A stretch of DNA of 11,925 nucleotides from a virus (IMGVR_UViG_2698536443_000025); one strand, 5' to 3'. Numbered from the stretch's first letter, positions 1-11,925 are shown. The notes: generated from the sequence alone by a model not told the origin. A program made the numbers and translations.

Positions 1-276
1 GTGGCTTCTGTTTCTATCAGCTGTCCCTCCTGTTCAGCTACTGACGGGGTGGTGCGTAACGGCAAAAGCACCGCCGGACATCAGCGCTATCTCTGCTCTC
101 ACTGCCGTAAAACATGGCAACTGCAGTTCACTTACACCGCTTCTCAACCCGGTACGCACCAGAAAATCATTGATATGGCCATGAATGGCGTTGGATGCCG
201 GGCAACCGCCCGCATTATGGGCGTTGGCCTCAACACGATTTTCCGCCATTTAAAAAACTCAGGCCGCAGTCGGTAA
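1..276 (+). CDS. insA: IS1 InsA (transposition inhibitor / N-terminal part of InsAB' transposase)
   Basis: 91-aa translation [37 protein letters not shown]... matches IS1 InsA as I recall it, including the zinc-finger CxxC...CxxC and helix-turn-helix region. GTG at position 1 occupies the usual insA start position. Confidence 0.9.
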
Positions 277-698
277 CCTCGCGCATACAGCCGGGCAGTG
301 ACGTCATCGTCTGCGCGGAAATGGACGAACAGTGGGGATACGTCGGGGCTAAATCGCGCCAGCGCTGGCTGTTTTACGCGTATGACAGGCTCCGGAAGAC
401 GGTTGTTGCGCACGTATTCGGTGAACGCACTATGGCGACGCTGGGGCGTCTTATGAGCCTGCTGTCACCCTTTGACGTGGTGATATGGATGACGGATGGC
501 TGGCCGCTGTATGAATCCCGCCTGAAGGGAAAGCTGCACGTAATCAGCAAGCGATATACGCAGCGAATTGAGCGGCATAACCTGAATCTGAGGCAGCACC
601 TGGCACGGCTGGGACGGAAGTCGCTGTCGTTCTCAAAATCGGTGGAGCTGCATGACAAAGTCATCGGGCATTATCTGAACATAAAACACTATCAATAA
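195..698 (+). CDS. insB: IS1 InsB frame (167 aa; expressed as InsAB' fusion after -1 frameshift)
   Basis: Translation [16 protein letters not shown]...HYLNIKHYQ matches the IS1 insB product (167 aa). It sits in the -1 frame relative to insA and overlaps its 3' end. Confidence 0.9.
252..258 (+). other. A6C programmed -1 ribosomal frameshift motif of IS1 (joins insA to insB')
   Basis: Sequence TTAAAAAACTC at 250-260 contains the AAAAAAC slippery run, just before the insA stop at 274-276, as in the known IS1 frameshift window. Confidence 0.85.
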
Positions 699-713
699 GT
701 TGGAGTCATTACC
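691..713 (+). repeat. IS1 right terminal inverted repeat (IRR)
   Basis: ATCAATAAGTTGGAGTCATTACC is the reverse complement of the IS1 end GGTAATGACTCCAACTTATTGAT. Flanking DNA starts at 714 (AGCAATTCG...). Confidence 0.9.
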
Positions 714-733
714 AGCAATTCGATAAATCCGAT

Positions 734-1027
734 GTGAAAATCGAAATGGTTTTCCTTAACCCCAACACGGGCAAGGTTGAAACTACTTACCCTGTTTTCC
801 GTGGGGTAGTCGATTCCATCGGTATTAACATCGAACATGAAGATGATGAGTGTAAAAACGAATCAGAATTTCAGCTTAATAGTATCTGGGAAGTTCTAGA
901 TAAAAACGCTCGTAGTCATGCCTCCGATGGTATCCACCGTTCCTATGTTGGAAACGAGAACGATCTATTCTTCTCCCGTGCCGGGAAGTGGAACTCAGAA
1001 AGCAAGTGGCATTCATCGAAGAAATAA
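734..1027 (+). CDS. Tail assembly protein K-like N-terminal (MPN/JAMM-like, probably inactive) domain ORF; 5' end apparently truncated by IS1
   Basis: The frame is open from inside IS1 across the junction at 713/714; the first in-frame starts are GTG 734 and ATG 746, neither with a clear Shine-Dalgarno. The translation ...EDDECKNESEF...ARSHASDGIHRSYVGNEND... loosely aligns by eye to lambda gpK residues ~20-110 (PEDC...HSHPGGLPWLSEAD), with the JAMM histidine and aspartate replaced (RSH...G). The assignment is tentative. Confidence 0.45.
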   Translation: MKIEMVFLNPNTGKVETTYPVFRGVVDSIGINIEHEDDECKNESEFQLNSIWEVLDKNARSHASDGIHRSYVGNENDLFFSRAGKWNSESKWHSSKK

Positions 1028-1073
1028 TCCCTTCTCCCTAAGCCTAGTAAATAACAGCATGGAGGTATTCAAC

Positions 1074-1493
1074 ATGCTAAAAACTAGGCTTATCACCGAT
1101 TACATCAATTCTTTAATAGGTCAGGAGTTCGTTCAAGGCGAGAATGATTGCAATCTCATTGCATGTAAGATCATCGATATTCTCGCTGGTACTGACCTAT
1201 ATAATTCTCTTTATAAAAAATATTCAACTAAAGAAGAAGGCTTGAAAATCTGCAAAGAATTAAGCGGATATTCAAACATCCTTCAACCAATTAAGAAACA
1301 TTTCAAATTAGTCACTGATGATTTACAGGACGGCGACTTACTGGTCACAGCCCACAAATTAGGAAACCGTAATTATTATTCCGTAGTTCCTCATTATTCC
1401 GGTTATGGCCTCGTTGAAGAAGATGGTATCTGGATGACCATTCCTGTTTCAGACATTGACTATGAACAAGTTTATAGATTCGGGGGTGAATAA
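1074..1493 (+). CDS. NlpC/P60-family tail assembly protein (lambda gpK C-terminal domain-like)
   Basis: GGAGG at 1061-1065 lies 8 nt before ATG 1074. The translation has GENDC (catalytic Cys candidate), GDLLVTAH and HYSGYG, which parallel lambda K GVTDC / GDVLLC / HAAIYCG. The stop TAA overlaps the next gene start (TAATG at 1491-1495). The track ORF 918-1493 is the same frame extended upstream. Confidence 0.75.
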   Translation: MLKTRLITDYINSLIGQEFVQGENDCNLIACKIIDILAGTDLYNSLYKKYSTKEEGLKICKELSGYSNILQPIKKHFKLVTDDLQDGDLLVTAHKLGNRNYYSVVPHYSGYGLVEEDGIWMTIPVSDIDYEQVYRFGGE

Positions 1494-4400
1494 TGGGATT
1501 TGAAATATTGGTAGGCGCGGTTATTGCTGGTGCGTCTGCTGGGATGGCTGCTGCTGCAACATTTTCTGTTATGACCGCAGTCGCTATCGGTATGGCTGCT
1601 GGTGCAATGACCTTGATCGCTTCCACTGTAGGCGCACCAAAAACACCTAAAGTACAAAGCCCAGATAATGCGGTGACACTAGGAACATCAAACGATCCGA
1701 AAGCGGTGATACCAGTCGTTTTCGGTACTACCCGCACTGGCACAAACTGTGTTTACAAAGCAGTTTCTAAGCAAGAAAACAATAAGCTAGTGCAAATCTT
1801 CTCTGTAGCCGAGGGTGAAATCGACCATTACAAAGCACTCTTTATTGATAATAAAAATGTTCTTGTTGGTAAGAACATGACGATCCGTGATGGTATTCTC
1901 GATAAGGGCAACATTAAAGAAGAATATCGTAAAGTATTAGAAGTCGAGTTCCGCACGGGCAAGAATCCTAACACCGCTTTGTCGCTGGCAAAACGTCATT
2001 TAGGCTCAGACTGGACCGACGCTTTCAAGGGTAACGGCATTGCGACCATGTGTATTGTGTTGCGTCGCGATGACAAATCTCTTGCTGCTGGTGTTGATAT
2101 TCTCCAGCCAAATAGCCAGGTAGCAGTAGACGTTTGCGGCCTTAAAATCCGTAACCTTGAAACCAATGCTATTGAGGCTAGCACTAACGGCGTGGATCAG
2201 ATTTTCCACTACCTAACAAATGAAAAATATGGCTTATCCGTACCAATTGAAAACATTAACGTTGATTCATTCCTGAAAGTACGTAAACAAGTACGCCAGA
2301 TGGATCTACATTCAAACGGTGCATGTGATCCGAACGCCAGCTTTAAAGAAAACTTGACTAATCTTATGCAGACTTTCGGCGGGGTGATGTTCGAATCCTT
2401 TGGACGTATTACGCTGAAACTGGATGCTCCTGATATTGTTAAGCATACCTTCAATGAAGACAATATCATGATGGGTAAGGTATCACTGAAAACAGGTGGC
2501 ACTAACGGTTATTTCAATACCATTAACGCGATGTATCAAGAACCATCAATTGACTATTCAGAGCAAATGCTACGTTATCCGGCTGATGCTGAAAACGATG
2601 CTACTGTTCGCGCAGATGGTCGAATTATTGCTAAGGATGTAGAATATCGTTTCGTTAAGTCTAAAGACCAGATTGATAAACTTGCGAGTATTGAACGAAA
2701 TAAATCTCGTATCACTCAGGTTATCAGCTTTATGACTACTGACGCATTCACTGCCGAAGTATGGGACGTTATCAGCGTAACCTATGATGAATTGAAACTG
2801 AATAATTCTTTATGGCGTATTACTGCAATTGATCGCTCGATTGATTCTGGTATTGCTGGGATGATGACTATCACCGCCACAGAATATAATTCTCAGGTTT
2901 ATACTGACCTGAACTATGCGGCAACTCCAGACAATAGACCAAGTGGTTTACCGGATTCAATGACAGTACAGAAGCCTACTAATTTCAGAATTAAGGCAAC
3001 TGGTGAGACGATTTACGGTAAAAACGTTACTTTGACATGGGATGCACCGGAAGATTTTAACCGTTATGGTTTCCAGATTGATTACCGTGTAAGCGGATCA
3101 CCTAACTGGATTAAGCTGGGACAGACTTCACAGCAAATTTTCAGTGTCAATGCACTGGCAAAAGATCGTTCCTACGATTACCGAGTTTGTGCTTTCGGTA
3201 TCATCGCGCGATCCGATTGGGTAGAACTGATTAACCAGAATCCTACTGTTACCTATGAATTGCCGACTCCGGTTATTCGAATCAAAAATCAGGGTAGCAC
3301 GCCAGGAACTTTCGAAGGTAATGATCTGATTATCGAATGGGAAAATCAGCAACAATTAGATGTTGAGATCAACGGTGAAACTAACAAGTTTAGTGACCTG
3401 TTTGAAGCATACATTATCAAGGTGACTAACAAGGCTGGTAAGTCTATTCAGTACCGTACCCGCGATCCTGAATCATGGACTTATACGCTTGATATGAACC
3501 AATTTAACGGCCTTTCGCGTCAACTGACGGTAGAAGTATCAGCTAAGGGCTATAACAACTCAGAGAGCGCCCCAGCGCGTTTAGTGGCTATCAACCCACA
3601 ACATAAGCCAATGAAAGGTTTTAGTGCGCGTGGTGGCTTTAATACTGCGTTTGTTAGCTGGGCGGATGACGTAGAACATGACTATGCAGGGTCAATCATC
3701 CAGTATGCAACCGACAACACTTTCTCAGATGCAAGGGCAGTAAGTACGAATAGTGTTAGCCATACTTCCTTTGATATTGCTGACGGTGATTATTATATCC
3801 GTGGTGCTCACTACGATATTTTCGGTATGGATGATGCTGTTTGGTCTGAACCGTATTTCATGCAAATGAAGTCTACGATTAGTTGGGACGATCAGGACAA
3901 AGAAGCACTGGAAGACCTGATCGGTTTACAAGATCGCTTAGATGAAACTATCGCGGATGCTATTAAGCAAGCTGGCGCTAATGCCGATGCTAAAATTGAT
4001 GCAATGCATAAGCAAATCACTACCGAGACGGGTAAAACTGTTCAAGCCTCAGCCGATACCTTAAAGAGTCTGATTGCTTCTGGTGATAAGGCAAGTTCAA
4101 CTAAGATTGATCAGGTTAAAGCTGAACTGAAAGGCGATATCACCAAAGAAGTTAGCGCCTCCGCTACAACCCTGAAACAAGCAATTGCAACCAGTGAGGC
4201 AGCAAGCGCAAGTAAGATTGATCAAGTTCGGGTAGAAATGGATGGCAAGATTGCTGGTGTGAATCAGGAAGCAGATGTAAAAATCGATGCTTTGAAAGGA
4301 ACCATTAACAGCAAATACAATCTGGCAGTTAATGCAGATGGTCGTGTGGCTGGTATTCACATGAGCGCAACCAACGATCCGGCACAACCGACTAAAATCA

Positions 4401-5269
4401 TCTTTACGGCTGATAAAATTGCTGTAGCTCCGCAGAACGGGACCGATGTTTGCCCGTTTGGTATCGAAGGTAACAAGGTTTATCTCGATAATGCGATGAT
4501 TCGTAATGCTGCAATTGGTACAGCCCATATTAGTGATGCGGCAATTACTACCGCTAAGATCGGCAATGCTGCAATTAACAGCGCGAAGATTCAGGACGGG
4601 GCAATCACTAACGCCAAGATTGTAAATGGCGCAATTGATAACGCTAAAATCGGTAACTATATCCAGTCTTCCAACTGGAACGGATCGACCGGATGGCATA
4701 TCAACAAGAACGGTAATGCTACGTTCATGAATGCTACCGTTAAAGGTAATATCACGGCTGATTCTGGTACTCTGAACAACGTCACGATTAACTCTAGCTG
4801 TGTTATTAAGGGTATGCTTGAAGCTACTCAGGTTAAGGGTGATTTCGTTAAGGTGATTGGTCGTAAGTTCCCACACCGTGATGTTAACGTTGATAATGGT
4901 TATGGCGGCTATCCGCAAGGTACAGTAACCGTTCGCGTTGAAGATGATCACAAGTTCGATCGTCAAATCGTTATTCCGGCGATTAGTTTTGGTGGATTGC
5001 GAGCGCGTGAAGGGTCGAACAATAATACCTATTACGACACCTGTCGCCTGATTGTTCGTAAGAATGGGTCAGAGTTGTATAATAGGGCGTATGGCGGTAA
5101 TACTGGTCTTTACTCAGGTGTTATTGATATGCCAGCGGGTAAAGGTGCTGTGACCTTGACCTTTGAAGTGCAATCAAGCGCAATCAACAACTGGACGCCT
5201 AGCACATGGATCAGTGATTTAACTGTAATGGTAACTAAAAAAGCCACTACTGGTATTACTGTTTCTTAA
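1493..5269 (+). CDS. Central tail fibre / host specificity protein J (tip attachment protein) with an N-terminal gpI-like domain
   Basis: 1258-aa ORF with GGGGGTGA 4 nt before ATG 1493. The C-terminal ~170 aa (NATVKGNITADSGTLNNVTINSSCVIKG...DRQIVIPAISF...VIDMPAGKGAVTLTF...VMVTKKATTGITVS) parallels the lambda gpJ C-terminus (NANSGTLSNVTIAENCTINGTL...DRQIVVLPLTF...IVDMPAGRGNVILTF...VMVIKKQALGISVV). Residues ~100-130 resemble the gpJ N-terminus. Residues 1-95 (hydrophobic Ala/Gly-rich stretch, then APKTPKVQSPDN and AVIPVVFGTTRTG) resemble the lambda gpI C-terminus (APKARTPRIQTTDN, NVLPVLYGEMRVG). Confidence 0.9.
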   Translation: MGFEILVGAVIAGASAGMAAAATFSVMTAVAIGMAAGAMTLIASTVGAPKTPKVQSPDNAVTLGTSNDPKAVIPVVFGTTRTGTNCVYKAVSKQENNKLVQIFSVAEGEIDHYKALFIDNKNVLVGKNMTIRDGILDKGNIKEEYRKVLEVEFRTGKNPNTALSLAKRHLGSDWTDAFKGNGIATMCIVLRRDDKSLAAGVDILQPNSQVAVDVCGLKIRNLETNAIEASTNGVDQIFHYLTNEKYGLSVPIENINVDSFLKVRKQVRQMDLHSNGACDPNASFKENLTNLMQTFGGVMFESFGRITLKLDAPDIVKHTFNEDNIMMGKVSLKTGGTNGYFNTINAMYQEPSIDYSEQMLRYPADAENDATVRADGRIIAKDVEYRFVKSKDQIDKLASIERNKSRITQVISFMTTDAFTAEVWDVISVTYDELKLNNSLWRITAIDRSIDSGIAGMMTITATEYNSQVYTDLNYAATPDNRPSGLPDSMTVQKPTNFRIKATGETIYGKNVTLTWDAPEDFNRYGFQIDYRVSGSPNWIKLGQTSQQIFSVNALAKDRSYDYRVCAFGIIARSDWVELINQNPTVTYELPTPVIRIKNQGSTPGTFEGNDLIIEWENQQQLDVEINGETNKFSDLFEAYIIKVTNKAGKSIQYRTRDPESWTYTLDMNQFNGLSRQLTVEVSAKGYNNSESAPARLVAINPQHKPMKGFSARGGFNTAFVSWADDVEHDYAGSIIQYATDNTFSDARAVSTNSVSHTSFDIADGDYYIRGAHYDIFGMDDAVWSEPYFMQMKSTISWDDQDKEALEDLIGLQDRLDETIADAIKQAGANADAKIDAMHKQITTETGKTVQASADTLKSLIASGDKASSTKIDQVKAELKGDITKEVSASATTLKQAIATSEAASASKIDQVRVEMDGKIAGVNQEADVKIDALKGTINSKYNLAVNADGRVAGIHMSATNDPAQPTKIIFTADKIAVAPQNGTDVCPFGIEGNKVYLDNAMIRNAAIGTAHISDAAITTAKIGNAAINSAKIQDGAITNAKIVNGAIDNAKIGNYIQSSNWNGSTGWHINKNGNATFMNATVKGNITADSGTLNNVTINSSCVIKGMLEATQVKGDFVKVIGRKFPHRDVNVDNGYGGYPQGTVTVRVEDDHKFDRQIVIPAISFGGLRAREGSNNNTYYDTCRLIVRKNGSELYNRAYGGNTGLYSGVIDMPAGKGAVTLTFEVQSSAINNWTPSTWISDLTVMVTKKATTGITVS
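4505..4654 (+). repeat. Five tandem 30-bp coding repeats inside J (10-aa units NAAIGTAHIS / DAAITTAKIG / NAAINSAKIQ / DGAITNAKIV / NGAIDNAKIG)
   Basis: Direct reading of 4505-4654 shows five in-frame 30-nt units with the conserved core GC(N)GCAAT...GC(N)AAGAT. It is a coding repeat with no spacers, not a CRISPR array. Confidence 0.8.
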
Positions 5270-5288
5270 AAATTTAATTTTAATAATT

Positions 5289-5330
5289 AATCCCGCTTAA
5301 TTCTTTTGAGTTAGGCGGGATTATTTTTAT
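5289..5330 (+). terminator. Rho-independent terminator downstream of J
   Basis: Inverted repeat AATCCCGC (5289-5296) / GCGGGATT (5315-5322) followed by ATTTTTAT, 20 nt after the J stop codon. The loop is long (18 nt), so efficiency is uncertain. Confidence 0.55.
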
Positions 5331-5375
5331 CTAAATAATTTTGCCATTAAACTATATAAAAATATCGGGGGCGTA

Positions 5376-5654
5376 ATGACTGAAATTATATATGGCGGTA
5401 TCGGTGTTATCGCCTTAATTTGTGGTGGTCTTTGGAGACTTCACCGAAATCAATTAGCAACTGAAAATAGATTGTCGAAATTGGAATCCAGCGACGCATT
5501 GTTAAACCAGAAGTTTGAGACGATGCAGAATAACCATACTCAGATTGCTGAACGTGTTTACCAAATGGAACAAACACTACACGGTATAGAGAAGAAAGTG
5601 GTTGCGATGGATGCTAAATTTGACCAAGTTCTCGACATACTCAAACAAAAATAA
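5376..5654 (+). CDS. Membrane-anchored coiled-coil protein (92 aa), function unknown
   Basis: CGGGGG Shine-Dalgarno 5 nt before ATG 5376. N-terminal hydrophobic segment IIYGGIGVIALICGGLW, followed by a heptad-like coiled-coil region. First gene of a co-directional operon. Confidence 0.75.
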   Translation: MTEIIYGGIGVIALICGGLWRLHRNQLATENRLSKLESSDALLNQKFETMQNNHTQIAERVYQMEQTLHGIEKKVVAMDAKFDQVLDILKQK

Positions 5655-5672
5655 TAATAAAGGGGTGAATAT

Positions 5673-5843
5673 ATGAAGAATAAACTTAAGAAATATTTTG
5701 GTTATCTCTTGATTGTCGCCCTCACTTATAACGTAGCTATTAGACCTCTGCTAACGTCCTTTGGGCTTGAACTCCCGGCTATGACCGTGGATGAACAATT
5801 GCTAAGGACACTGGCGGGGGTCTTTTCGTTATTAGGGGGCTAA
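5673..5843 (+). CDS. Small hydrophobic protein (56 aa), not in the supplied ORF track
   Basis: AAGGGGTG Shine-Dalgarno 7 nt before ATG 5673. Translation MKNKLKKYFGYLLIVALTYNVAIRPLLTSFGLELPAMTVDEQLLRTLAGVFSLLGG with no internal stops. The stop TAA 5841-5843 sits 1 nt before ATG 5845 of the next gene, and the ORF fills an otherwise unexplained 190-bp gap in a tight operon. Confidence 0.6.
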   Translation: MKNKLKKYFGYLLIVALTYNVAIRPLLTSFGLELPAMTVDEQLLRTLAGVFSLLGG

Positions 5844-5844
5844 C

Positions 5845-6528
5845 ATGGCAACCAGTACCAATAAACGAAACGCTCTAAGGACTAAGAAAGCGTTACGGCA
5901 ATGGTCTGAAAAGGCAACCGATACATTCGAAAGGGCACTAGGGGAAGGGGCGATCTTTGCTTCCAGAGCACTCCAGAAGAAGATTAACAAGAATGTTGAT
6001 AGACCTACTCGATGGACTCAACAAGCTGTAGGTAATACCAACTACAAGAACCGATCAGGGACCAGACACCAAATCTTCATCAAGGGCGCAAGGGATAAGG
6101 ACAAGAAGATCGGCAGTCAGGATGACTATCTGAAACACTATTTCGATGGTGGCAAAATCAATAAGCTAGTGCCAATCGCCAACGGTAAGGTCTTAGACTC
6201 CCACGGGAACATTAAGGCCATCAAAGGCGGTAAGATGATGCGTAACATCGAAAACGGCAACTTCATCAAGGTAGAGAACAAGGAAGGGACTTTTATCATG
6301 AAGAAGTACAAGCCTAAGAAATCCCGAACCAAACGCGCTAAGAATGGATCGGCGGTGGCAAAACGTCGCTTAGAGAAACGCATCCAGAAACAGAGTAAGC
6401 GAATTGTTGCCGTTAAGTCGGATAAAATTTCTACTCGTTATTCGACGCTAGGATCGTGGGAAAGCAACGAAGCAATGATGCTTGAAAACATCAATAAGCA
6501 CATTAAATCGCGCATGAAATACGTTTAA
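5845..6528 (+). CDS. Lysine/arginine-rich basic protein (227 aa), function unknown
   Basis: TAGGGGG Shine-Dalgarno before ATG 5845. Long ORF with strongly basic composition (KKYKPKKSRTKRAKNGSAVAKRRLEKRIQKQSKR). No motif recognised. Confidence 0.75.
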   Translation: MATSTNKRNALRTKKALRQWSEKATDTFERALGEGAIFASRALQKKINKNVDRPTRWTQQAVGNTNYKNRSGTRHQIFIKGARDKDKKIGSQDDYLKHYFDGGKINKLVPIANGKVLDSHGNIKAIKGGKMMRNIENGNFIKVENKEGTFIMKKYKPKKSRTKRAKNGSAVAKRRLEKRIQKQSKRIVAVKSDKISTRYSTLGSWESNEAMMLENINKHIKSRMKYV

Positions 6529-6538
6529 TCAATAAATA

Positions 6539-6560
6539 CCCTCATAGAATCTTATGGGGG
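6539..6560 (+). promoter_or_regulatory. RNA hairpin sequestering the Shine-Dalgarno of the 6567 gene
   Basis: CCCTCATA (6539-6546) pairs with TATGGGGG (6553-6560) as 8 bp including one G-U, with a 6-nt loop. The GGGGG Shine-Dalgarno of ATG 6567 lies in the 3' arm. Confidence 0.4.
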
Positions 6561-6566
6561 TATAAC

Positions 6567-6914
6567 ATGGCTAAAAATATTTTCACTGAATTTCCTACTT
6601 ATCCGGTTGATCAGCTTTCCGGTATTTTTATTAATGGCATTAGCCCAGAATCTATGACCTATGATTTTGAGGCGAAGAGAGTTAAACATAAACAATATAA
6701 AGAATGTATCCGTGACCATGAAAAGGGGACCGTGTTTTGTGTCGCTACATTGGCTAAACGTCCTAAATATCGTTTTCGTGTAGGGCAAGAAGTCGATGTA
6801 GTTAATCCTTATAGCTTTAACTGTCTGGGTGATGCACGCGCGGTGTGTGTAGGCACTGCTCCTTATTATATCAAGGGTATGCGCTTTATTGGTTATATCT
6901 TCGAAATGATCTAA
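6567..6914 (+). CDS. Hypothetical protein (115 aa)
   Basis: GGGGG Shine-Dalgarno 6 nt before ATG 6567, co-directional operon context, and 9-nt spacing to the next gene. No motif recognised. Confidence 0.7.
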   Translation: MAKNIFTEFPTYPVDQLSGIFINGISPESMTYDFEAKRVKHKQYKECIRDHEKGTVFCVATLAKRPKYRFRVGQEVDVVNPYSFNCLGDARAVCVGTAPYYIKGMRFIGYIFEMI

Positions 6915-6923
6915 GGGGGTAAT

Positions 6924-7277
6924 ATGTTAAGTAAGCATTTTTCTCGCAAGGAATTTAAATGTAAATGCGGAAAATGTGATTATGATACAATCGACGCTGA
7001 ATTACTGGTGATTCTTGAGGATGTACGAGAGCACTTCGGTAAACCAGTGATTATTAACAGTGGGAACCGTTGCCCGACTCATAACAAGAATGTAGGCGGC
7101 GCAACCAATAGCTATCATGTTCGAGGCCGCGCGGCTGACATTGTTATCAAGGGTGTCTCGCCTGATATTGTTCATGCTTATCTTGATGGGAAATATCCTA
7201 CTCAATACGGCTTAGGAAAATATAAAACCTTTACGCATATTGATTCCAGATCAAAAAAATCACGGTGGAATGGATAA
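6924..7277 (+). CDS. Peptidase M15 family zinc metallopeptidase (M15_3/M15A-type cell-wall peptidase, endolysin-like)
   Basis: AAGGGGG Shine-Dalgarno before ATG 6924. Translation has FSRKEFKCKCGKC at the N-terminus and SGNRCPTHNKNVGGATNSYHVRGRAADI...FTHID, the His/Asp/His zinc-ligand pattern of M15-type D-Ala-D-Ala carboxypeptidase-like phage peptidases. Recognised from memory, not searched. Confidence 0.8.
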   Translation: MLSKHFSRKEFKCKCGKCDYDTIDAELLVILEDVREHFGKPVIINSGNRCPTHNKNVGGATNSYHVRGRAADIVIKGVSPDIVHAYLDGKYPTQYGLGKYKTFTHIDSRSKKSRWNG

Positions 7278-7280
7278 AAC

Positions 7281-7308
7281 AAAAGCGCCTCTGGTGGGCG
7301 CTTTTTTG
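7281..7308 (+). terminator. Rho-independent terminator ending the accessory operon
   Basis: Stem AGCGCC (7284-7289) / GGCGCT (7297-7302) with a 7-nt loop, followed by TTTTT (7303-7307), immediately after the TAA at 7275-7277. Confidence 0.8.
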
Positions 7309-7383
7309 TTAGAATATGCTGGCGACGTTAGCTATATTTCTGACTATTTTTTCATTATAGACAAATATACCGCAGAAGATAAA

Positions 7384-7626
7384 GTGGTATTTGATGAAGC
7401 AGATCCGTCACTGGTTGAAGCAATGAAAGAACCGGAACCAGTAGAAGAAACTCCGGTAGTGGAACCTGTCATTGAAGAAGTTCAGCCAGTAGTTGAAGAA
7501 GTACCGGAAGTTAACGCAGAATCTCCGGTAGCCAACATTTTCTCTGACGAAGCAGAGCATCGTTCTCCGGTACATGACACAGAAACATTTTGCGATCTTA
7601 CTGGTTTCCAAAACTACAATAATTAA
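7384..7626 (+). CDS. Acidic Pro/Glu/Val-rich protein (start uncertain: GTG 7384 or ATG 7423)
   Basis: Clear GNN-rich codon periodicity in the frame ending at TAA 7624-7626 (EPEPVEETPVVEPVIEEVQPVVEEVPEV...). The track start at 7240 is unlikely because it would overlap the preceding gene and contain the terminator hairpin. No strong Shine-Dalgarno at either candidate start. Confidence 0.4.
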   Translation: MVFDEADPSLVEAMKEPEPVEETPVVEPVIEEVQPVVEEVPEVNAESPVANIFSDEAEHRSPVHDTETFCDLTGFQNYNN

Positions 7627-7636
7627 TTCTTATAAA

Positions 7637-7673
7637 TAGTAGTGAATATTATTTTATTGAGGATTCACTACTA
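7637..7673 (+). promoter_or_regulatory. 11-bp perfect inverted repeat overlapping the RBS and start codon of the 7673 gene (operator or translational hairpin)
   Basis: TAGTAGTGAAT (7637-7647) and ATTCACTACTA (7663-7673) are exact reverse complements separated by 15 nt. The spacer holds the GAGGA Shine-Dalgarno (7659-7663), and the right arm ends on the A of ATG 7673. Confidence 0.5.
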
Positions 7674-8671
7674 TGAATACTACTTTAGCAAAGGATATCG
7701 AATTTACCGCAAAAAGCAAACGTGCGACCCCTCCGGTCGAATATGAAACCAGAATCATTAAAGTTTGTCAAGTGCATGGATGGTTATACAGTGGTTTTGT
7801 GCTTCCTGTAAAGAAACCATTCCAGAACACCAAAGTTTGCATAGAAGTTAACGGAAAGGTTAAAACGCCATGTATTAGTCATGTTCTAACTGGTCAGTTT
7901 ACTGGCAAAGATAGAGTATCACCGCCTAAGAAGAAGTTTAGATTTACCGAAGAAGAACACTTAGAAAACGCTCGCAAGTTCTACAAGCCGATAGGGTGGG
8001 ATGTGTTAGGTCTGGCTGAACCTTATCAGGGTGTTGACACTAAACTAATTCTTCGTTGTAAGTGCCACGGAAAGATTCACAAGAAAGGTGATTTACACAA
8101 TAACCGCAGACAAGGCGGGTTAACATGCCCTTTGGTTAGGGGGGTACTTAAATCAATTCAGAACGGTAGAAAACAGGTTATCAGAAACAAGTTTGCACAG
8201 CGCCCTATGCACTTTTATCTAATTCGTGTTGGCGAGAAGTTTTTCAAATATGGAATTACCACTCGCAAAGATCCGATGCAACGGGTAAGAGAACACCAGA
8301 AGCACACCAGCGAGAAAATCACCTTTGAATGCTCACATTTGTTTAACATTGGATGGAAAGCTGGTGATTTAGAAATGGGGATTAAAAAGAATATTCAGGG
8401 CAAGAAAATCCCACGTAAGGTAATGAATAGCGGATTCACAGAAACGCTACCGATTAGCAAGCTGAAAGATGTTAAATCATTCATCAATGAATACATCCAC
8501 ACCAACCCATCTAAGCCAATGTATTTTGATGATACCAACGCAATCAATCTGAACAACTACATTAGTGATGAAGACATAGAACGAGATTTATCGCAGTGGA
8601 TGAATGCACCGTTAGCTGATTTAATACCGGAAGACTTAGAACTCGATTTAAGCCCATTAGAGACACTCTAA
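7673..8671 (+). CDS. T5orf172-domain (GIY-YIG superfamily) protein with Cys/His-rich N-terminal region and acidic C-terminal tail
   Basis: 332-aa ORF with GAGGA Shine-Dalgarno. Residues ~185-215 FYLIRVGEKFFKYGITTRKDPMQRVREH fit the T5orf172 signature (...KIGxTTRxPxxR...). The N-terminal ~180 aa carry CQVHG, C...C and CKCHGKIH motifs suggesting zinc binding. The C-terminus is acidic (EDLELDLSPLETL). Confidence 0.75.
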   Translation: MNTTLAKDIEFTAKSKRATPPVEYETRIIKVCQVHGWLYSGFVLPVKKPFQNTKVCIEVNGKVKTPCISHVLTGQFTGKDRVSPPKKKFRFTEEEHLENARKFYKPIGWDVLGLAEPYQGVDTKLILRCKCHGKIHKKGDLHNNRRQGGLTCPLVRGVLKSIQNGRKQVIRNKFAQRPMHFYLIRVGEKFFKYGITTRKDPMQRVREHQKHTSEKITFECSHLFNIGWKAGDLEMGIKKNIQGKKIPRKVMNSGFTETLPISKLKDVKSFINEYIHTNPSKPMYFDDTNAINLNNYISDEDIERDLSQWMNAPLADLIPEDLELDLSPLETL

Positions 8672-8683
8672 CGCAATTAAATT

Positions 8684-8717
8684 AAAAAGGGGTACGAATG
8701 TACCCCTTAACTGTTTT
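8684..8717. terminator. Bidirectional rho-independent terminator between convergent genes
   Basis: Perfect 7-bp stem GGGGTAC (8689-8695) / GTACCCC (8700-8706) with a 4-nt loop. It is flanked by AAAAA upstream (a U-run for the minus-strand transcript) and TTAACTGTTTT downstream (a weaker U-run for the plus strand). Confidence 0.7.
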
Positions 8718-8744
8718 AGCTCGTTATACGTCGATTTAGGCCGC

Positions 8745-10424
8745 TTAAATTCCAAATTCCTGTAATGGACCTGGTATTTCCTCTTCTGGCTTCCAGTCTT
8801 TATCTGTCAGCATGTCTAAACATGGATGCAGAACAAGCCCGTTACTCTCCAGAATCTGCCTATCATTGATAGTTTTCAAATCGACAAAGATTTGTCCTTT
8901 CCTCGGTCCTCTTGAATTTTCTATTACAACTCTCTGGGTCTTGCCATCAATGTATTCCAGTACAAACAAGTTTTTGTATTTGTCAATCCTGCTACACCCG
9001 ATCCGTTTTAGAGCTTGCTTAATCTTAAACCGGACCTTAATGCGATCCTCGTTATAAACATCTTCTAAATCAAATTCTGCGAGCTTCTCCCAGCCTTGAG
9101 AGTCCACAGAATACATTTCCTCTTCTGCCATCTTAATCTGATTATAGAGTGTTTCACGCTCGCTATTGAGGGTAGTAATCTGGTCGGCTAACTCCTTCGT
9201 TGCTCCAGTCATAGCAGAAAGGGTAATCAGGTTATCAATCTTGCGTGATATCTCATCAATCTGTACTTTCAAAGCCGGAACAGGATTAGCCTTATCCTCA
9301 GCAATCCAGATTTTATCAGCCAGCAATTGCAATACAGCTTTCTCTAATTGATCACCTCGAAAACTCCAGTTTGTATGCACACATGCAATACGACTAGAGC
9401 GCATTGCATCGCATGAATAACGATATTGGTTAGGCCGTTTGTTAGTTCCTTTCACCTTAACCATAGCGGAACCGCAATGTTCACATTTCAGCAGATTAAC
9501 ACCACTAAGCAGGGGGATCGGTTTAGCTTCTTCTTTGTCTCCATAGTTACATGCTCTAACACCAATGCTTTTCTTAAGGTGATAAAACTCAGCGTCATCT
9601 AGCACACGAGGGTAATAATCCTTTAACTCATACTTAACGCCATCTACAGAGATTTCCTTGATACCAATCAAAGCGCGGGTATGGAACAACCTTTCAATCA
9701 TTGCCCGTGACCAGTTTGAATGCCTCTTGTGACTTGCGGCTGGTGGTGGTGTGTATGTCGCGTTAAGGTGATCCAGTATCTCGGCGGTTGACCGTCCATT
9801 CCTGCGTAATTCCACAACTTCCTGAACAATAGGGAAGAAGACCGGATGAGGAAGCACATAACCAGATGTGGTATCAGTCCACCACATATTCTTTCCAATT
9901 TCCTCGATTGCAACAGCCGGATTTTGTGGATTTTCTTGATGAGCTTTAATCTTAATCAGTGCGCTTGAGTTAGTACGATTGCGCTTAGTCTGGCTTTCCT
10001 CATTACCACGGATGAATAAAAGGATGGAGAACATCAGGTCCATCGGGTTAGCGGTAACAGTATCAAGCGAGTAGATCTTGTTATCCATGCCAGTAACAAT
10101 GGTTATCCCCCTACGGATGATTGAAAGGAATAACTCCTGCGCACTGACAATATCGGCACGGGATAAACGGTCCAAGTTTTCGATGAATAGCCAGCTACCA
10201 ACAGGAACGGATCTACCTATTGCATCAAGGAAACGAGATAGCGCCCCTGTTTTGGAGTTAGCACCCTTAAACGCAGATACACCCAGATCCTGATAATCAT
10301 TTACCAGTTCAAGGTCATACTTTACCGCAATCTCTCTAGCCATCCTGATTTGTCGTTCATAACTCGAACCATCATTCTGACGCATAGACGAGAAGCGAAT
10401 ATACGAATACAGTTTAGTTTTCAT
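8745..10424 (-). CDS. Large serine recombinase (putative serine integrase)
   Basis: The N-terminal resolvase-type catalytic domain has YIRFSSMRQ (catalytic Ser) and ENLDRLSR. It is followed by a recombinase domain, a zinc ribbon (CEHCGS...YRYSC...AC) and a coiled-coil region. Start taken at ATG 10424-10422 (MKTKLYSYIRFSS); the track ORF starts at an in-frame TTG at 10439. Confidence 0.9.
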   Translation of the reverse strand: MKTKLYSYIRFSSMRQNDGSSYERQIRMAREIAVKYDLELVNDYQDLGVSAFKGANSKTGALSRFLDAIGRSVPVGSWLFIENLDRLSRADIVSAQELFLSIIRRGITIVTGMDNKIYSLDTVTANPMDLMFSILLFIRGNEESQTKRNRTNSSALIKIKAHQENPQNPAVAIEEIGKNMWWTDTTSGYVLPHPVFFPIVQEVVELRRNGRSTAEILDHLNATYTPPPAASHKRHSNWSRAMIERLFHTRALIGIKEISVDGVKYELKDYYPRVLDDAEFYHLKKSIGVRACNYGDKEEAKPIPLLSGVNLLKCEHCGSAMVKVKGTNKRPNQYRYSCDAMRSSRIACVHTNWSFRGDQLEKAVLQLLADKIWIAEDKANPVPALKVQIDEISRKIDNLITLSAMTGATKELADQITTLNSERETLYNQIKMAEEEMYSVDSQGWEKLAEFDLEDVYNEDRIKVRFKIKQALKRIGCSRIDKYKNLFVLEYIDGKTQRVVIENSRGPRKGQIFVDLKTINDRQILESNGLVLHPCLDMLTDKDWKPEEEIPGPLQEFGI

Positions 10425-10442
10425 ACCATTTCCAAACAAAAA

Positions 10443-10472
10443 CGCCCCTACCGCGTATTATAACGATAGGGG
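10443..10472 (-). terminator. Hairpin plus U-run (minus strand) directly upstream of the recombinase start, with a TATAAT hexamer in its loop
   Basis: On the minus strand: GCCCCTA-(16-nt loop containing TATAAT)-TAGGGGC followed by GTTTTTGTTT, ending ~10 nt before ATG 10424. The stem is 7 bp. Confidence 0.5.
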
Positions 10473-10487
10473 CTAGGTGATTAAAGA

Positions 10488-10907
10488 TTAAAGAATTTCA
10501 CGGCAGCTAATCAGGGAATAAGACGTATCACCTTTTTTAACATCAAATATAGGCGCGCCATCTACAGAATGCAGATATTTGATGTAGGATTTACCATCTT
10601 CGGAACCATAATATTCTTCTTTCTCGTTCTTATCTTCTTTCAGTTTTGGGCTTTTGATTGTTTTATCAAATACCGGATCGTTGAAAGCAAATTGACTATT
10701 ATCATCATTCACTCGAACCTTTACACCGATAAAACCACGGTATTTGCCAGACGGCGCATGATAATAACGGTCGCCATCACTCAGGTAGCGTGTATCATCT
10801 CCTTTATATTCGAAGTAGGAATTGCACACATAATAGGTATAGGTATTAGCATTCGCAGCACCAACCAAACCCAGAGCAAGAACAACACCAGCGATAATCT
10901 TTTTCAT
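10488..10907 (-). CDS. Secreted (signal-peptide) protein, 139 aa, function unknown
   Basis: AGAGGAA Shine-Dalgarno 8 nt before the ATG. N-terminus MKKIIAGVVLALGLVGAANA is a typical Sec signal peptide with an A-N-A cleavage motif and no lipobox cysteine. The mature part is Tyr/Asp/Lys-rich with two Cys. Confidence 0.75.
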   Translation of the reverse strand: MKKIIAGVVLALGLVGAANANTYTYYVCNSYFEYKGDDTRYLSDGDRYYHAPSGKYRGFIGVKVRVNDDNSQFAFNDPVFDKTIKSPKLKEDKNEKEEYYGSEDGKSYIKYLHSVDGAPIFDVKKGDTSYSLISCREIL

Positions 10908-10952
10908 AGTAGAATTTCCTCTTGTTGTTTGAATTACGATATATTTATATCA

Positions 10953-11075
10953 TTAAAAGTTAATGCTAATAATCAGCCCAAACACAACCGCACCAATCAA
11001 ATCAATCCAGTTAATACACAGCGAATATTCTTTCTTGAATGTCTTAGATGAAATGCCATCATGAAATTGTTTCAT
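10953..11075 (-). CDS. Small membrane peptide (40 aa), not in ORF track
   Basis: Minus-strand ATG 11075 preceded by GGGGTGAG. Translation MKQFHDGISSKTFKKEYSLCINWIDLIGAVVFGLIISINF has a C-terminal hydrophobic helix. It is in the same frame as the upstream 26-aa ORF, separated only by TGA-GCA. Confidence 0.35.
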   Translation of the reverse strand: MKQFHDGISSKTFKKEYSLCINWIDLIGAVVFGLIISINF

Positions 11076-11078
11076 TGC

Positions 11079-11159
11079 TCACCCCATACTAACGACAATA
11101 TAAGAAAGACTAATCATGGTTGTGAGACTACCTCCCACGAATGAGATAAAAGCTAACAT
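11079..11159 (-). CDS. Small hydrophobic peptide (26 aa), not in ORF track
   Basis: Minus-strand ATG 11159 preceded by GGAGAA 8 nt upstream. Translation MLAFISFVGGSLTTMISLSYIVVSMG, stop TGA 11081-11079. It lies immediately downstream of a minus-strand terminator hairpin. Confidence 0.3.
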   Translation of the reverse strand: MLAFISFVGGSLTTMISLSYIVVSMG

Positions 11160-11175
11160 GTTTGATTCTCCATTT

Positions 11176-11201
11176 AAAAAGCGGTGGGAATTACACCCAC
11201 C
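11176..11201 (-). terminator. Rho-independent terminator (minus strand) after the 145-aa gene
   Basis: On the minus strand: GGTGGG-TGTAATT-CCCACC followed by GCTTTTTAAA (plus-strand stem arms 11183-11188 and 11196-11201, A-run 11176-11180), 15 nt after the stop at 11216. Confidence 0.6.
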
Positions 11202-11215
11202 AAATTAGAAATTAA

Positions 11216-11653
11216 TTAAGCGCGAACGATGGTCAGAGTATCCAGCAAACCTTTTTCGTATAATTCGAAACACGTTTTATATTGCTCAATCTTCCAACCG
11301 TAGCGGGTGATCTTATTCAGTAGAATAATCACGGTATTCTCATCTAGGTATTGTCCTTGCTTACCAATTACATATGACTCGCGGGATAGTCTCAGCTTAC
11401 GGAAACCTTTAACACCTAATTCCTTAGCCACCGCTTTAATCTCGTTAATCTCACCTTCTGCGGCTACATATTCAGCGTCGATAATCTCAGTTGATGATCT
11501 CAGTGCTACCAGAACTAAGGCCATTGCTTCTTCTTCGGTACGAGCAACACCAGCTTTCTCGAAAGTCATCTCACCAAATTTACGAGTCATAATATTGAAC
11601 ATTGTCTGTATTCCGTTTAAATCGGCGGGAATAGTACCCGCCAAATTAGACAT
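11216..11653 (-). CDS. Hypothetical protein (145 aa)
   Basis: Long minus-strand ORF whose ATG overlaps the stop of the upstream ORF (TAATG at 11653), suggesting translational coupling. No motif recognised. Confidence 0.7.
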   Translation of the reverse strand: MSNLAGTIPADLNGIQTMFNIMTRKFGEMTFEKAGVARTEEEAMALVLVALRSSTEIIDAEYVAAEGEINEIKAVAKELGVKGFRKLRLSRESYVIGKQGQYLDENTVIILLNKITRYGWKIEQYKTCFELYEKGLLDTLTIVRA

Positions 11654-11925
11654 TACTTCTTGCTGATAAACTCTTTAGCGATAAAGTTGATTACTTCTTT
11701 CAGCTTCTTGTCTGTATCGATGCACGCTGGTAATTCTTCTTTAATATCCTGCGGCAGATACACATTGCCTTTAAAGTGGAGGAAACCATCATTACCAATC
11801 ATGTAGGAGAACATCCATTCACAATCGTTATCCGCTTCCCAGAACGCCACGGTCTCATCCCCAATCAAGGTAATGTCCATGTTGCGACGCGCTGCGTAGT
11901 TGATGATTGCTTTACCGATGTTCAT
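11653..11925 (-). CDS. Hypothetical protein (90 aa if the ATG at the window edge is the true start; may be a 3' fragment of a longer gene)
   Basis: Minus-strand ORF running from the window edge (ATG at 11925-11923) to TAA at 11655-11653. Coupled to the downstream gene by the TAATG overlap. No motif recognised. Confidence 0.55.
   Translation of the reverse strand: MNIGKAIINYAARRNMDITLIGDETVAFWEADNDCEWMFSYMIGNDGFLHFKGNVYLPQDIKEELPACIDTDKKLKEVINFIAKEFISKK

What the first reader, a model, noticed from the sequence alone, without database searches (positions are those of the whole stretch)
8745..10439. Large serine recombinase at the int position of a lambdoid-style genome
The gene order (tail tip genes, accessory region, then a leftward-transcribed recombinase preceded by a leftward operon) mirrors lambda J-b region-int-early left operon. 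Lambdoid phages classically use a tyrosine integrase, but here the recombinase is a 564-aa serine recombinase. No att site is evident in the window: the only palindromes flanking the gene (8689-8706 and 10443-10472) are better explained as terminators, although they could double as attP-like sites.
Basis: partly seen in the sequence, partly recalled or inferred. Interest (0 to 1): 0.5.

Follow-up and report, generated by a model that had tools for sequence, protein, structure and literature searches.

The report
Serine integrase of an enterobacterial prophage
The gene is a genuine large serine recombinase that almost certainly acts as the integrase of a 35-kb E. coli/Shigella/Salmonella prophage inserting inside the host gene hicB (sister lineage: ycdX); this is an uncharacterised member of a well-known enzyme class, and its attachment site lies just outside the window.

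Summary
Observation confirmed. Window 8745-10424(-) encodes a 559-aa large serine recombinase (LSR); its likely start is the ATG at 10424, not the TTG at 10439. It has all catalytic and zinc-ribbon residues and an LSR-like predicted fold.

Interpretation partly supported.
- It is the only recombinase in a ~35-kb prophage found in 62 of 5426 complete E. coli genomes. It is chromosomal in all, with the phage-hicB junction in 35 genomes and the phage-ycdX junction in 25.
- Comparing attL/attR with empty sites gives a ~52-bp attP whose half-sites match at 17 of 25 positions around an AA crossover.
- Copies 99.98-100% identical to the window continue into attR in hicB; the crossover is 43-44 nt past the window end.
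- The two flanking palindromes are intrinsic terminators, not att sites.
- The phage is not lambdoid beyond its J-like tail tip. attP lies upstream of a short leftward gene cluster, not between the tail genes and int.

The hicB- and ycdX-type integrases are 92% identical; 20 of the 24 residues that distinguish them lie in the DNA-binding domains.

Inferred only: a sigma-70-like promoter straddles attP and would be split by integration.

Verdict: new member of a known kind, moderate interest.

The parts
8745..10424 (-). Large serine recombinase (integrase), 559 aa. Catalytic domain ~1-125 with S12 as nucleophile; long helix E 127-164; recombinase domain ~196-291; zinc ribbon ~312-370 (C314, C317, C338, C348); coiled coil 382-437; extra C-terminal alpha/beta region 458-540.
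   Evidence: Pfam and PHROG hits; invariant residues; AF2 model and Foldseek matches to full-length LSRs; the exact protein is found on 10 contigs next to hicB/ydcR.
8687..8708 (.). Bidirectional intrinsic terminator between the convergent 332-aa gene (+) and int (-). It is not an att site.
   Evidence: 9-bp stem with a T-run on both strands; -14.5 and -15.0 kcal/mol, z -4.6 and -4.3; no prophage junction maps here in any lysogen.
10444..10473 (-). Strong terminator hairpin (11-bp stem, then GUUUUUGUUU) about 10 nt upstream of the int ribosome-binding region. A TATAAT lies in its loop (10457-10462). It is not an att site.
   Evidence: -20.5 kcal/mol, z -3.9. It is conserved even where the upstream gene differs, and in Salmonella relatives, including the loop TATAAT.
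10488..10907 (-). Gene C: 139-aa protein with an N-terminal signal peptide (MKKIIAGVVLALGLVGAANA). It is a variable accessory (moron-like) gene, replaced by unrelated small genes in relatives.
   Evidence: Translations and comparison; no family hit.
11182..11202 (-). Terminator-like hairpin after gene B. It is one copy of a 40-nt repeat (11178-11217); the other copy lies at 11619-11658.
   Evidence: (-11.4 kcal/mol, z -2.2).
11216..11653 (-). Gene B: conserved small protein, PHROG 14908, function unknown. Its true start is probably the ATG at 11602 (128 aa), as annotated in relatives. It is present in all E. coli and Salmonella relatives and is a candidate regulator or directionality factor, untested.
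   Evidence: The single-sequence AF2 model was unusable.
11653..11925 (-). Gene A: 90-aa protein, PHROG 6147, function unknown. It is the first gene after attP and is absent from some relatives (L007, L012). Its ATG is the last base triplet of the window.
1..713 (+). IS1 (the window starts at the insA start codon), inserted into the 217-aa tail gene of this prophage copy only.
   Evidence: 99.9% identity to IS1; the near-identical copy L050 has the uninterrupted gene.
1493..5269 (+). J-like tail tip / host-specificity protein, 1258 aa. This is the only clearly lambda-like feature.
   Evidence: Pfam Ig_GpJ_C, Phage_Tail_Tip.

Best explanation
The gene encodes the integrase of a ~35-kb temperate siphovirus-like prophage family of Escherichia, Shigella and Salmonella.

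Mechanism (inferred from the established LSR mechanism): integrase dimers bind a ~52-bp attP and an attB inside a host coding sequence. They cut both at a central AA dinucleotide, rotate subunits and religate. This leaves the prophage between the two halves of the split gene.
- attP: TTATTGTGGGTACATGATATTAGGC-AA-CCCGAATGTAGTCAACCCAAAATAA. It is reconstructed, and its P arm starts 18 nt past the window's right end.
- attB: for the window's lineage this is hicB, GACGAATTGGC-AA-ACCTAAACAGGAG, codon 102 of 138, within the predicted C-terminal helix-turn-helix. A sister lineage with a 92%-identical integrase uses ycdX (CATCCCGGA-AA-TCCCAAATATG).
- Target choice tracks substitutions in the recombinase and zinc-ribbon domains.

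Shown in silico: enzyme class, catalytic residues, junctions, crossover position, attP symmetry, two target sites, and the terminator nature of the palindromes.

Inferred:
- catalytic activity;
- the need for an unidentified directionality factor for excision;
- a sigma-70-type promoter (TTGACT-17 nt-TATCAT) that straddles attP, so that integration separates its -35 from its -10 and silences the leftward cluster that leads to int.
For: Enzyme class.

Distribution:
- The prophage is in 62 of 5426 complete E. coli genomes, on chromosomes only, and on no plasmid.
- 35 genomes carry the phage-hicB attR and 25 the phage-ycdX attR.
- Both host genes are intact in more than 5000 other genomes.

Junctions:
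- attL and attR were read in PEC41, VTB96775v, 14EC017, CE0007a, PRO_A, in IMG/VR prophages, and in Salmonella.
- The L012 variant (AGGG-AA-ACCT) and the ycdX pair pin the exchange to the same AA.
- The attP half-sites match at 17/25 (hicB type) and 16/25 (ycdX type) positions around exactly that AA. It is the unique best centre (next best 10) and the shuffle p is ~1e-4.
- Copies 99.98-100% identical to the window run straight into attR in hicB.

Specificity: 24 residues distinguish the hicB type from all ycdX-type integrases. Twenty lie in residues 196-351, and none lies in 1-195 or 352-459.

Other recombinases: none in the element.

Promoter:
- It matches the consensus at 10 of 12 positions in the reconstructed attP, directly upstream of the ribosome-binding site of the first leftward gene.
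- The -35 is kept as TTGACT, TTGACC, TTGACA or TTTACA, and the -10 as TATCAT, TATAAT or TATTAT. The 17-nt spacing holds in E. coli and Salmonella lineages while the spacer sequence varies.
Against: - There is no experimental evidence of recombination.
- No free or circular attP sequence was found in IMG/VR or JGI metagenomes, so attP is reconstructed, not observed.
- The window's copy carries IS1 in a tail gene and may no longer make virions.
- No directionality factor was identified.
- Two intrinsic terminators lie between the proposed attP promoter and int, so whether that promoter drives int itself is uncertain. How int is expressed for excision from the prophage is unexplained.
- attB shows only weak dyad symmetry (7-9/25).
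- A 10/12 promoter match occurs about twice per 3 kb by chance.
- Part of the conservation in the att arms could reflect integrase binding rather than RNA polymerase.
Confidence: 0.85

Rival explanations
1. The recombinase is an accessory resolvase or invertase, like the YbcK-type serine recombinases carried in the nin region of lambdoid coliphages. On this reading, integration is done by another enzyme, such as a tyrosine integrase elsewhere in the element.
For: Lambdoid coliphages do carry a ~30%-identical LSR homologue (YbcK-like) away from the int position. One relative (PEC41) has an 'integrase core domain' gene.
Against: No tyrosine integrase is annotated or detected anywhere in the complete prophages. 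The PEC41 rve gene is an insertion absent from CE0007a at the same position. The junctions show a 2-bp identity at the centre of a dyad-symmetric ~50-bp attP, which is the signature of an LSR and not of a tyrosine integrase with arm sites. Target site co-varies with the recombinase's DNA-binding domains. There are no plasmid hits.
Confidence: 0.04
2. The flanking palindromes (8687-8708 and 10444-10473) are, or double as, attP-like sites for this recombinase.
For: They are the only strong dyad symmetries next to the gene inside the window.
Against: They have the anatomy of terminators: G+C-rich stems, a short loop, and a U-run on the transcribed strand. In 60 lysogens the element's end lies elsewhere. 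They share no sequence with the reconstructed attP, and no host/phage junction maps to them.
Confidence: 0.02
3. The gene is a relic. The prophage is a decaying, vertically inherited remnant and the recombinase no longer moves anything.
For: IS1 interrupts a tail gene in the window. Other copies carry IS5, IS2, IS1 or an rve insertion. No free phage genome or attP was found in viral or metagenome collections, and no match exists among 50,697 deposited phage genomes.
Against: The integrase ORF is intact and identical on 10 contigs. Full-length copies without IS exist (L050, CE0007a). The prophage is patchily distributed (~1% of genomes, from many hosts and countries, 90-97% identical). It occupies two sites, and the Salmonella lineage uses the same ycdX position, which argues for repeated recent integrations. 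The DNA-binding-domain substitutions tracking a new target imply selection on function.
Confidence: 0.15
4. The recombinase belongs to a small transposon-like cassette (as TnpX does in Tn4451) nested at the end of a prophage, and it mobilises only that cassette.
For: The int cluster is bounded by terminators and carries variable cargo (gene C). LSR transposons with a joint-formed promoter are known (Lyras and Rood 2000, cited in PMC13023037).
Against: The split halves of hicB or ycdX flank the entire ~35-kb element, not the 3-kb cluster. No second copy of the att arms lies between int and the structural genes.
Confidence: 0.03

Closest known systems
Phage large serine integrases that insert into host coding sequences (Listeria A118/LI integrase in comK; Bacillus SPbeta SprA in spsM; also PhiC31, Bxb1, TP901-1)
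   Same: Same domain order: catalytic domain, helix E, recombinase domain, zinc ribbon, coiled coil. Same catalytic Ser/Arg motifs. Same site design: a short dyad-symmetric attP, a dissimilar attB, and a non-palindromic 2-bp crossover. Integration splits a host gene. The predicted fold matches these structures.
   Different: Sequence identity is only 11-16% in structural alignments, and sequence search hits only one catalytic domain in the PDB. The host is a Gram-negative enteric bacterium. There is an extra ~100-residue C-terminal alpha/beta region. attP is separated from int by up to three small genes and two terminators. No directionality factor is known.
Burkholderia phage Bcep176 gp53 / phage JC1 serine recombinase, and YbcK-like LSRs of lambdoid coliphages (DLP12 ybcK)
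   Same: These are the closest phage-encoded relatives in GenBank phage records (~30% identity over 80-85% of the protein). They come from Gram-negative hosts and are LSRs of similar length.
   Different: Only ~30% identical. The YbcK-type genes sit in the late/nin region of true lambdoid phages that also have a tyrosine integrase. Here the LSR is the sole recombinase and lies next to the element's end.
Promoters formed or completed only in the circular form of a mobile element (Tn4451 TnpX joint promoter; ICEclc Pcirc; ICEKp1 P3'end)
   Same: The proposed attP promoter would exist only when the two element ends are joined, coupling recombinase-cluster expression to the excised or infecting state (analogy drawn from PMC13023037 and the reference to Lyras and Rood 2000 in it).
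   Different: Here the -35 and -10 would lie on opposite arms of the attP core itself, overlapping the integrase binding sites. The idea is untested, and two terminators separate the promoter from int.

Membership tests
Large serine recombinase (serine integrase) | N-terminal resolvase-type catalytic domain with the nucleophilic Ser and conserved Arg/Asp residues | tested here: met
   Pfam PF00239 at 54 bits against a cut-off of 23. Y8, R10, S12, Q16, D85, R86, S88, R89 are invariant in 39 homologues.
Large serine recombinase (serine integrase) | C-terminal recombinase domain plus a zinc ribbon with four Cys and an embedded coiled coil | tested here: met
   PF07508 and PF13408 are above their cut-offs. 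C314, C317, C338, C348 are invariant. Helices 382-406 and 410-437 appear in the AF2 model. Full-length Foldseek matches to 9dxd, 9tep, 9rah and 4kis have E 1e-16 to 1e-9.
Large serine recombinase (serine integrase) | Simple ~40-50-bp attP and attB, imperfect inverted repeats, sharing a central dinucleotide where exchange occurs; no arm-type sites | tested here: met
   Comparison of attL, attR and empty sites pins the exchange to AA in both the hicB and ycdX lineages. The attP half-sites match at 16-17 of 25 positions about that AA. attB symmetry is weak (7-9/25).
Large serine recombinase (serine integrase) | Catalyses attP x attB recombination unaided, and needs a directionality factor for attL x attR | not testable with these tools
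   Needs an in vivo or in vitro recombination assay. Directionality factors lack sequence conservation and synteny (PMC12286644). No candidate could be validated, and the gene B model failed.
Lambdoid phage | Lambda-type early region (cI/cro, N, O/P, Q) and int-xis next to attP between the b region and the early left operon | tested here: not met
   Only a Rha/anti-repressor-like protein and a small-terminase-like protein were recognised in the 8-kb early region of the complete relative CE0007a. attP lies upstream of the int cluster. The lysis genes follow the tail genes.
Lambdoid phage | Mosaic DNA relatedness to known lambdoid phages | tested here: not met
   A megablast of the window against 50,697 phage records hit only IS1 and a T4-like fragment.
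Lambdoid phage | J-type central tail fibre / tip attachment protein | tested here: met
   Pfam Ig_GpJ_C (7.6e-34) and Phage_Tail_Tip (4e-20) in the 1258-aa protein at 1493-5269.

The most novel reading that the evidence does not exclude
The most novel reading not excluded has three parts.
1. The attP core of this phage family is itself a promoter: the -35 lies in the P' arm, the -10 in the P arm, and the AA crossover in the spacer.
2. The integration reaction would therefore physically dismantle the promoter of the leftward gene cluster leading to int, and integrase bound at attP would autoregulate it.
3. The family provides a natural pair of 92%-identical serine integrases retargeted from ycdX to hicB by ~20 substitutions confined to the recombinase and zinc-ribbon domains. 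That would be a ready-made map of LSR specificity determinants.
Probability: 0.4. Interest if true: 0.55.

Novelty: new member of a known kind. Interest (0 to 1): 0.35.

Why it matters
- Serine integrases are prized genome-engineering tools, and few from Gram-negative enteric phages have been characterised.
- This family comes with attP and attB sequences derived here for two targets. A small, localised set of residue differences correlates with the target switch. This could guide specificity engineering and supply orthogonal integrases that work natively in E. coli.
- Biologically, the phage disrupts hicB, truncating the antitoxin within its DNA-binding region, or ycdX. Lysogeny may therefore alter toxin-antitoxin regulation or swarming-related functions.
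- If the attP-straddling promoter is real, it adds a compact example of recombination-state-dependent gene control in a phage.
- None of this overturns current understanding.

Tried and rejected
1. My first reconstruction of the ycdX attB assumed the allele AACCCG. This put the ycdX crossover 6 bp away from the hicB one. A search with the alternative allele showed that AATCCC is the natural sequence (100% match in more than 3000 genomes). Both lineages then cross at the same AA.
2. I searched for a free or circular attP with the pattern ATATTNGGNAACCCGAANGTAGTCAA in IMG/VR and JGI metagenomes and found no hits. All IMG/VR matches to either arm were prophage junctions.
3. The text-held supplements of Durrant et al. 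2022 (PMC10083194) contain neither this protein nor these att sequences. Its full LSR database may not be held.
4. Literature searches for a serine integrase or prophage at hicB or ycdX found nothing relevant.
5. Single-sequence AlphaFold2 of gene B gave pLDDT 36 and was unusable. No fold search was attempted.
6. Pfam, NCBIfam and PHROG gave no function for genes A, B and C.
7. Rfam and tRNA scans of the window and of the relative's early region found nothing.
8. An in-frame phage ATG ahead of the 3' host-gene fragment at attR was considered as a way to express a C-terminal HicB or YcdX fragment. I rejected it because the ATG is missing from several variants (L007, L010, L012, Salmonella).
9. 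A PDB sequence search found only a weak match to one catalytic domain; fold comparison was needed.

Full report
**1. The observation**

The window has a minus-strand ORF at 8745-10439. Its translation begins LFGNGMKTKLYSYIRFSS. All RefSeq relatives are annotated from the ATG at 10424, giving 559 aa.

- It matches Pfam Resolvase, Recombinase and Zn_ribbon_recom above their curated cut-offs, and PHROG 95 'integrase' at 7e-58.
- In an alignment of 39 homologues down to 27% identity, the serine-recombinase catalytic residues (Y8, R10, S12, Q16, D85, R86, S88, R89) and four zinc-ribbon cysteines (C314, C317, C338, C348) are invariant.
- An AlphaFold2 model (pLDDT 79.6) shows the catalytic domain, a long helix E, a helical recombinase domain, a beta-ribbon, a two-helix coiled coil (382-437) and an extra C-terminal alpha/beta region.
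- Its best Foldseek matches are full-length serine integrases bound to att DNA: 9dxd, PhiC31 9tep/9rah and Listeria LI 4kis, at E 1e-16 to 1e-9.
- Sequence search alone sees only a weak match to one catalytic domain in the PDB, so this is a divergent large serine recombinase (LSR).

**2. Where the element lives**

- Window 1-713 is IS1.
- The rest has no close relative among 50,697 phage records or 72,556 plasmids.
- It matches a chromosomal prophage in 62 of 5426 complete E. coli genomes at 90-97% identity.
- In strain PEC41 the prophage (~36 kb) is bracketed by the two halves of ycdX.
- In 14EC017, CE0007a and PRO_A it (~35 kb) is bracketed by the two halves of the antitoxin gene hicB.
- Junction-spanning queries find the phage-hicB attR in 35 genomes and the phage-ycdX attR in 25.
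- Both host genes are intact in more than 5000 other genomes.
- Salmonella relatives with 70-75% identical integrases sit at the same position of ycdX.

No other integrase is present. The 'integrase core' gene of PEC41 is an insertion missing from CE0007a. The early-region ORFs give only a Rha/anti-repressor-like hit and a small-terminase-like hit.

**3. The att sites**

Reading attL and attR against the empty sites gives these sequences.

| Lineage | Site | Sequence |
|---|---|---|
| hicB | attB | GACGAATTGGC-AA-ACCTAAACAGGAG |
| hicB | attL | GAATTGGC-AA-CCCGAATGTAGTCAACCC |
| hicB | attR | ATGATATT[A/T]GG[C/G]-AA-ACCTAAACAGG |
| ycdX | attB | CATCCCGGA-AA-TCCCAAATATG |
| ycdX | attL | CCCGGA-AA-CCCGAACGTAGTCAACCCC |
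| ycdX | attR | GATATTAGGG-AA-TCCCAAATATG |

I first mis-assigned the ycdX crossover by assuming the wrong host allele; one search corrected this. The variant L012 (AGGG-AA-ACCT) and the ycdX pair each restrict the exchange to the same AA.

The reconstructed attP is TTATTGTGGGTACATGATATT[A/T]GG[C/G]-AA-CCCGAA[T/C]GTAGTCAACCC..AATAA. Its two 25-bp halves match at 17/25 (hicB type) and 16/25 (ycdX type) positions about exactly that AA. This is the unique best centre (next best 10) and the shuffle p is ~1e-4. It is independent support for the crossover and is typical LSR site anatomy. The non-palindromic AA fixes orientation.

**4. The window's own copy**

The exact 559-aa protein occurs on 10 public contigs. 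L050 and L051 are 99.98% identical to window 711-11925, and L052 and L053 are 100% identical over 6.5 kb. All continue past the window's last base as TGTTGTACCCCCTCGTG-TTATTGTGGGTACATGATATTAGGC-AA-ACCTAAACAGGAG, then the 3' part of hicB and ydcR.

- The window's element is therefore of the hicB type, and its crossover lies 43-44 nt beyond base 11925.
- The window stops at the start codon of the last phage gene, which is why no att site is visible in it.
- L050 lacks IS1, so in the window's strain IS1 has interrupted the 217-aa tail gene. That copy may be defective for virion production (inference).

**5. Specificity**

The window's integrase is 98.7-99.1% identical to other hicB-type enzymes and ~92% identical to E. 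coli ycdX-type enzymes. Twenty-four positions separate all hicB-type from all ycdX-type sequences, Salmonella included. Twenty of them lie in residues 196-351, the recombinase domain and zinc ribbon. None lies in the catalytic domain or the coiled coil.

The attP sequences differ at only a few positions: next to the core, and in the outer P' arm. Since ycdX is used in both Escherichia and Salmonella, hicB is probably the derived target (inference).

**6. The palindromes**

- 8687-8708 is a 9-bp-stem hairpin with T-runs on both strands, between convergent genes.
- 10444-10473 is an 11-bp-stem hairpin followed by GUUUUUGUUU on the int strand.
- A third hairpin follows gene B at 11182-11202.

None coincides with a prophage junction.

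**7. Gene order and the lambda analogy**

In window orientation the order is: tail genes, J-like tip, small genes, M15 endolysin, an accessory region, int(-), gene C(-), gene B(-), gene A(-), attP. On the other side of attP come a moron (LprI-like in CE0007a), a small-terminase-like gene, an ORF-poor region, Rha, the large terminase, portal and capsid.

Only the J-like protein is lambda-like, so the 'lambdoid' label is not supported. The nearest phage-encoded LSRs are ~30% identical: Burkholderia Bcep176 gp53 and JC1, and the YbcK-like LSRs that true lambdoid coliphages carry in addition to a tyrosine integrase.

**8. A regulatory inference**

On the int strand, the reconstructed attP reads TTGACT-ACATTCGGG-TT-GCCAAA-TATCAT. 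About 25 nt further on come GAGGGGG and the ATG of gene A.

- The -35 lies in the P' arm, the -10 in the P arm, and the crossover in the 17-nt spacer.
- The -10 is kept as TATCAT, TATAAT or TATTAT. The -35 is kept as TTGACT, TTGACC, TTGACA or TTTACA.
- The 17-nt spacing is the same in the E. coli and Salmonella lineages, whose spacer sequences differ. The third hicB type (L058, TTTACA) has an ambiguous register that could make its spacer 18 nt.
- At attR the -35 is replaced by host sequence, and no promoter was detected there.

Integration would thus split this promoter. This resembles the promoters completed only in the circular form of Tn4451, ICEclc and ICEKp1 (PMC13023037).

Caveats:
- A 10/12 match is not rare.
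- Part of the conservation may serve integrase binding.
- Two terminators lie between this promoter and int.
- How int is expressed for excision is unknown.

I put this idea at about 0.4-0.5.

**9. Verdict**

This is a real, intact LSR-type phage integrase of an uncharacterised enterobacterial prophage family. Its att sites are now defined in silico, and a natural specificity switch has been identified. It is a new member of a known kind. Recombination activity, the directionality factor and the split promoter remain to be tested.

Noticed in passing
window 1-713: IS1 (the window begins at the insA start codon) is inserted in the middle of the 217-aa tail gene (Gp84_N / DUF2163-like). A 99.98%-identical copy elsewhere (L050) has the gene intact, so this prophage copy is probably defective for tail assembly.
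   Followed up: yes
window 7240-7626 (match 7367-7609); relatives L013-L016: This stretch is 82-83% identical in DNA to an internal part of the 'inhibitor of prohead protease' (inh) gene of T4-like Krischvirus phages. Relatives carry UvsW helicase and UvsY genes at the same place. That amounts to a T4-type inh-uvsW-uvsY block acquired by a temperate phage, of which the window keeps only a remnant.
   Followed up: partly
window 11178-11217 and 11619-11658: A 40-nt direct repeat (80% identical) forms a hairpin after gene B and another after gene A. The stem differences are compensatory (GGTGGG/CCCACC versus GGCGGG/CCCGCC). The second copy lies inside the 17-codon N-terminal extension of the mechanical gene B ORF, which suggests the true B start is the ATG at 11602.
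   Followed up: partly
window 10457-10462: A perfect TATAAT sits in the loop of the terminator hairpin just upstream of int. It is conserved in Salmonella relatives, whose stem and loop otherwise differ slightly. It may be a weak promoter whose transcripts would lack the 5' half of the hairpin. The -35 is poor (3-4 of 6).
   Followed up: partly
window 10488-10907: Gene C encodes a small protein with a clear signal peptide. In relatives it is replaced by unrelated small secreted proteins or lipoproteins, or by a 345-aa CapR-domain protein. This is a moron slot between attP and int, with its own terminator.
   Followed up: partly
window 7673-8671: The 332-aa protein has weak endonuclease-like matches (PHROG 681; CapR and MUG113/T5orf172-like). 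Other genomes carry GIY-YIG or NUMOD3 proteins in this prophage (the NUMOD3 gene of 14EC017 sits among the tail genes). These look like mobile homing-endonuclease-type genes.
   Followed up: no
L008 17405-18673 (complete relative CE0007a, outside the window): This is a 1.27-kb stretch with no annotated gene. It holds a cluster of about eight GTAGGT(G/T)T-type repeats at 11/22-nt spacing (17995-18107). It could be an origin or an operator array. No Rfam family or tRNA was found there.
   Followed up: partly
attL/attR of the relatives (L005, L008, L009): Integration cuts hicB at codon 102 of 138, inside the predicted helix-turn-helix (QQELARRIGKPKQEITRLF). The N-terminal part stays next to hicA with an 8-residue phage-encoded tail. 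Lysogens may keep toxin neutralisation but lose operon autoregulation (inference).
   Followed up: no
L058 (E. coli, hicB site): A third att variant has a P' arm beginning ACCTAAATGTTGTAAACCCC. This gives a 14-bp attP/attB identity (TTGGCAAACCTAAA), so the crossover there cannot be placed by comparison alone.
   Followed up: no
L001 772-1818 and 15578-16558 (PEC41): The PEC41 copy of the prophage carries an extra rve ('integrase core') gene and an IS5. Both are absent from CE0007a, which shows ongoing IS-mediated decay of individual copies.
   Followed up: partly
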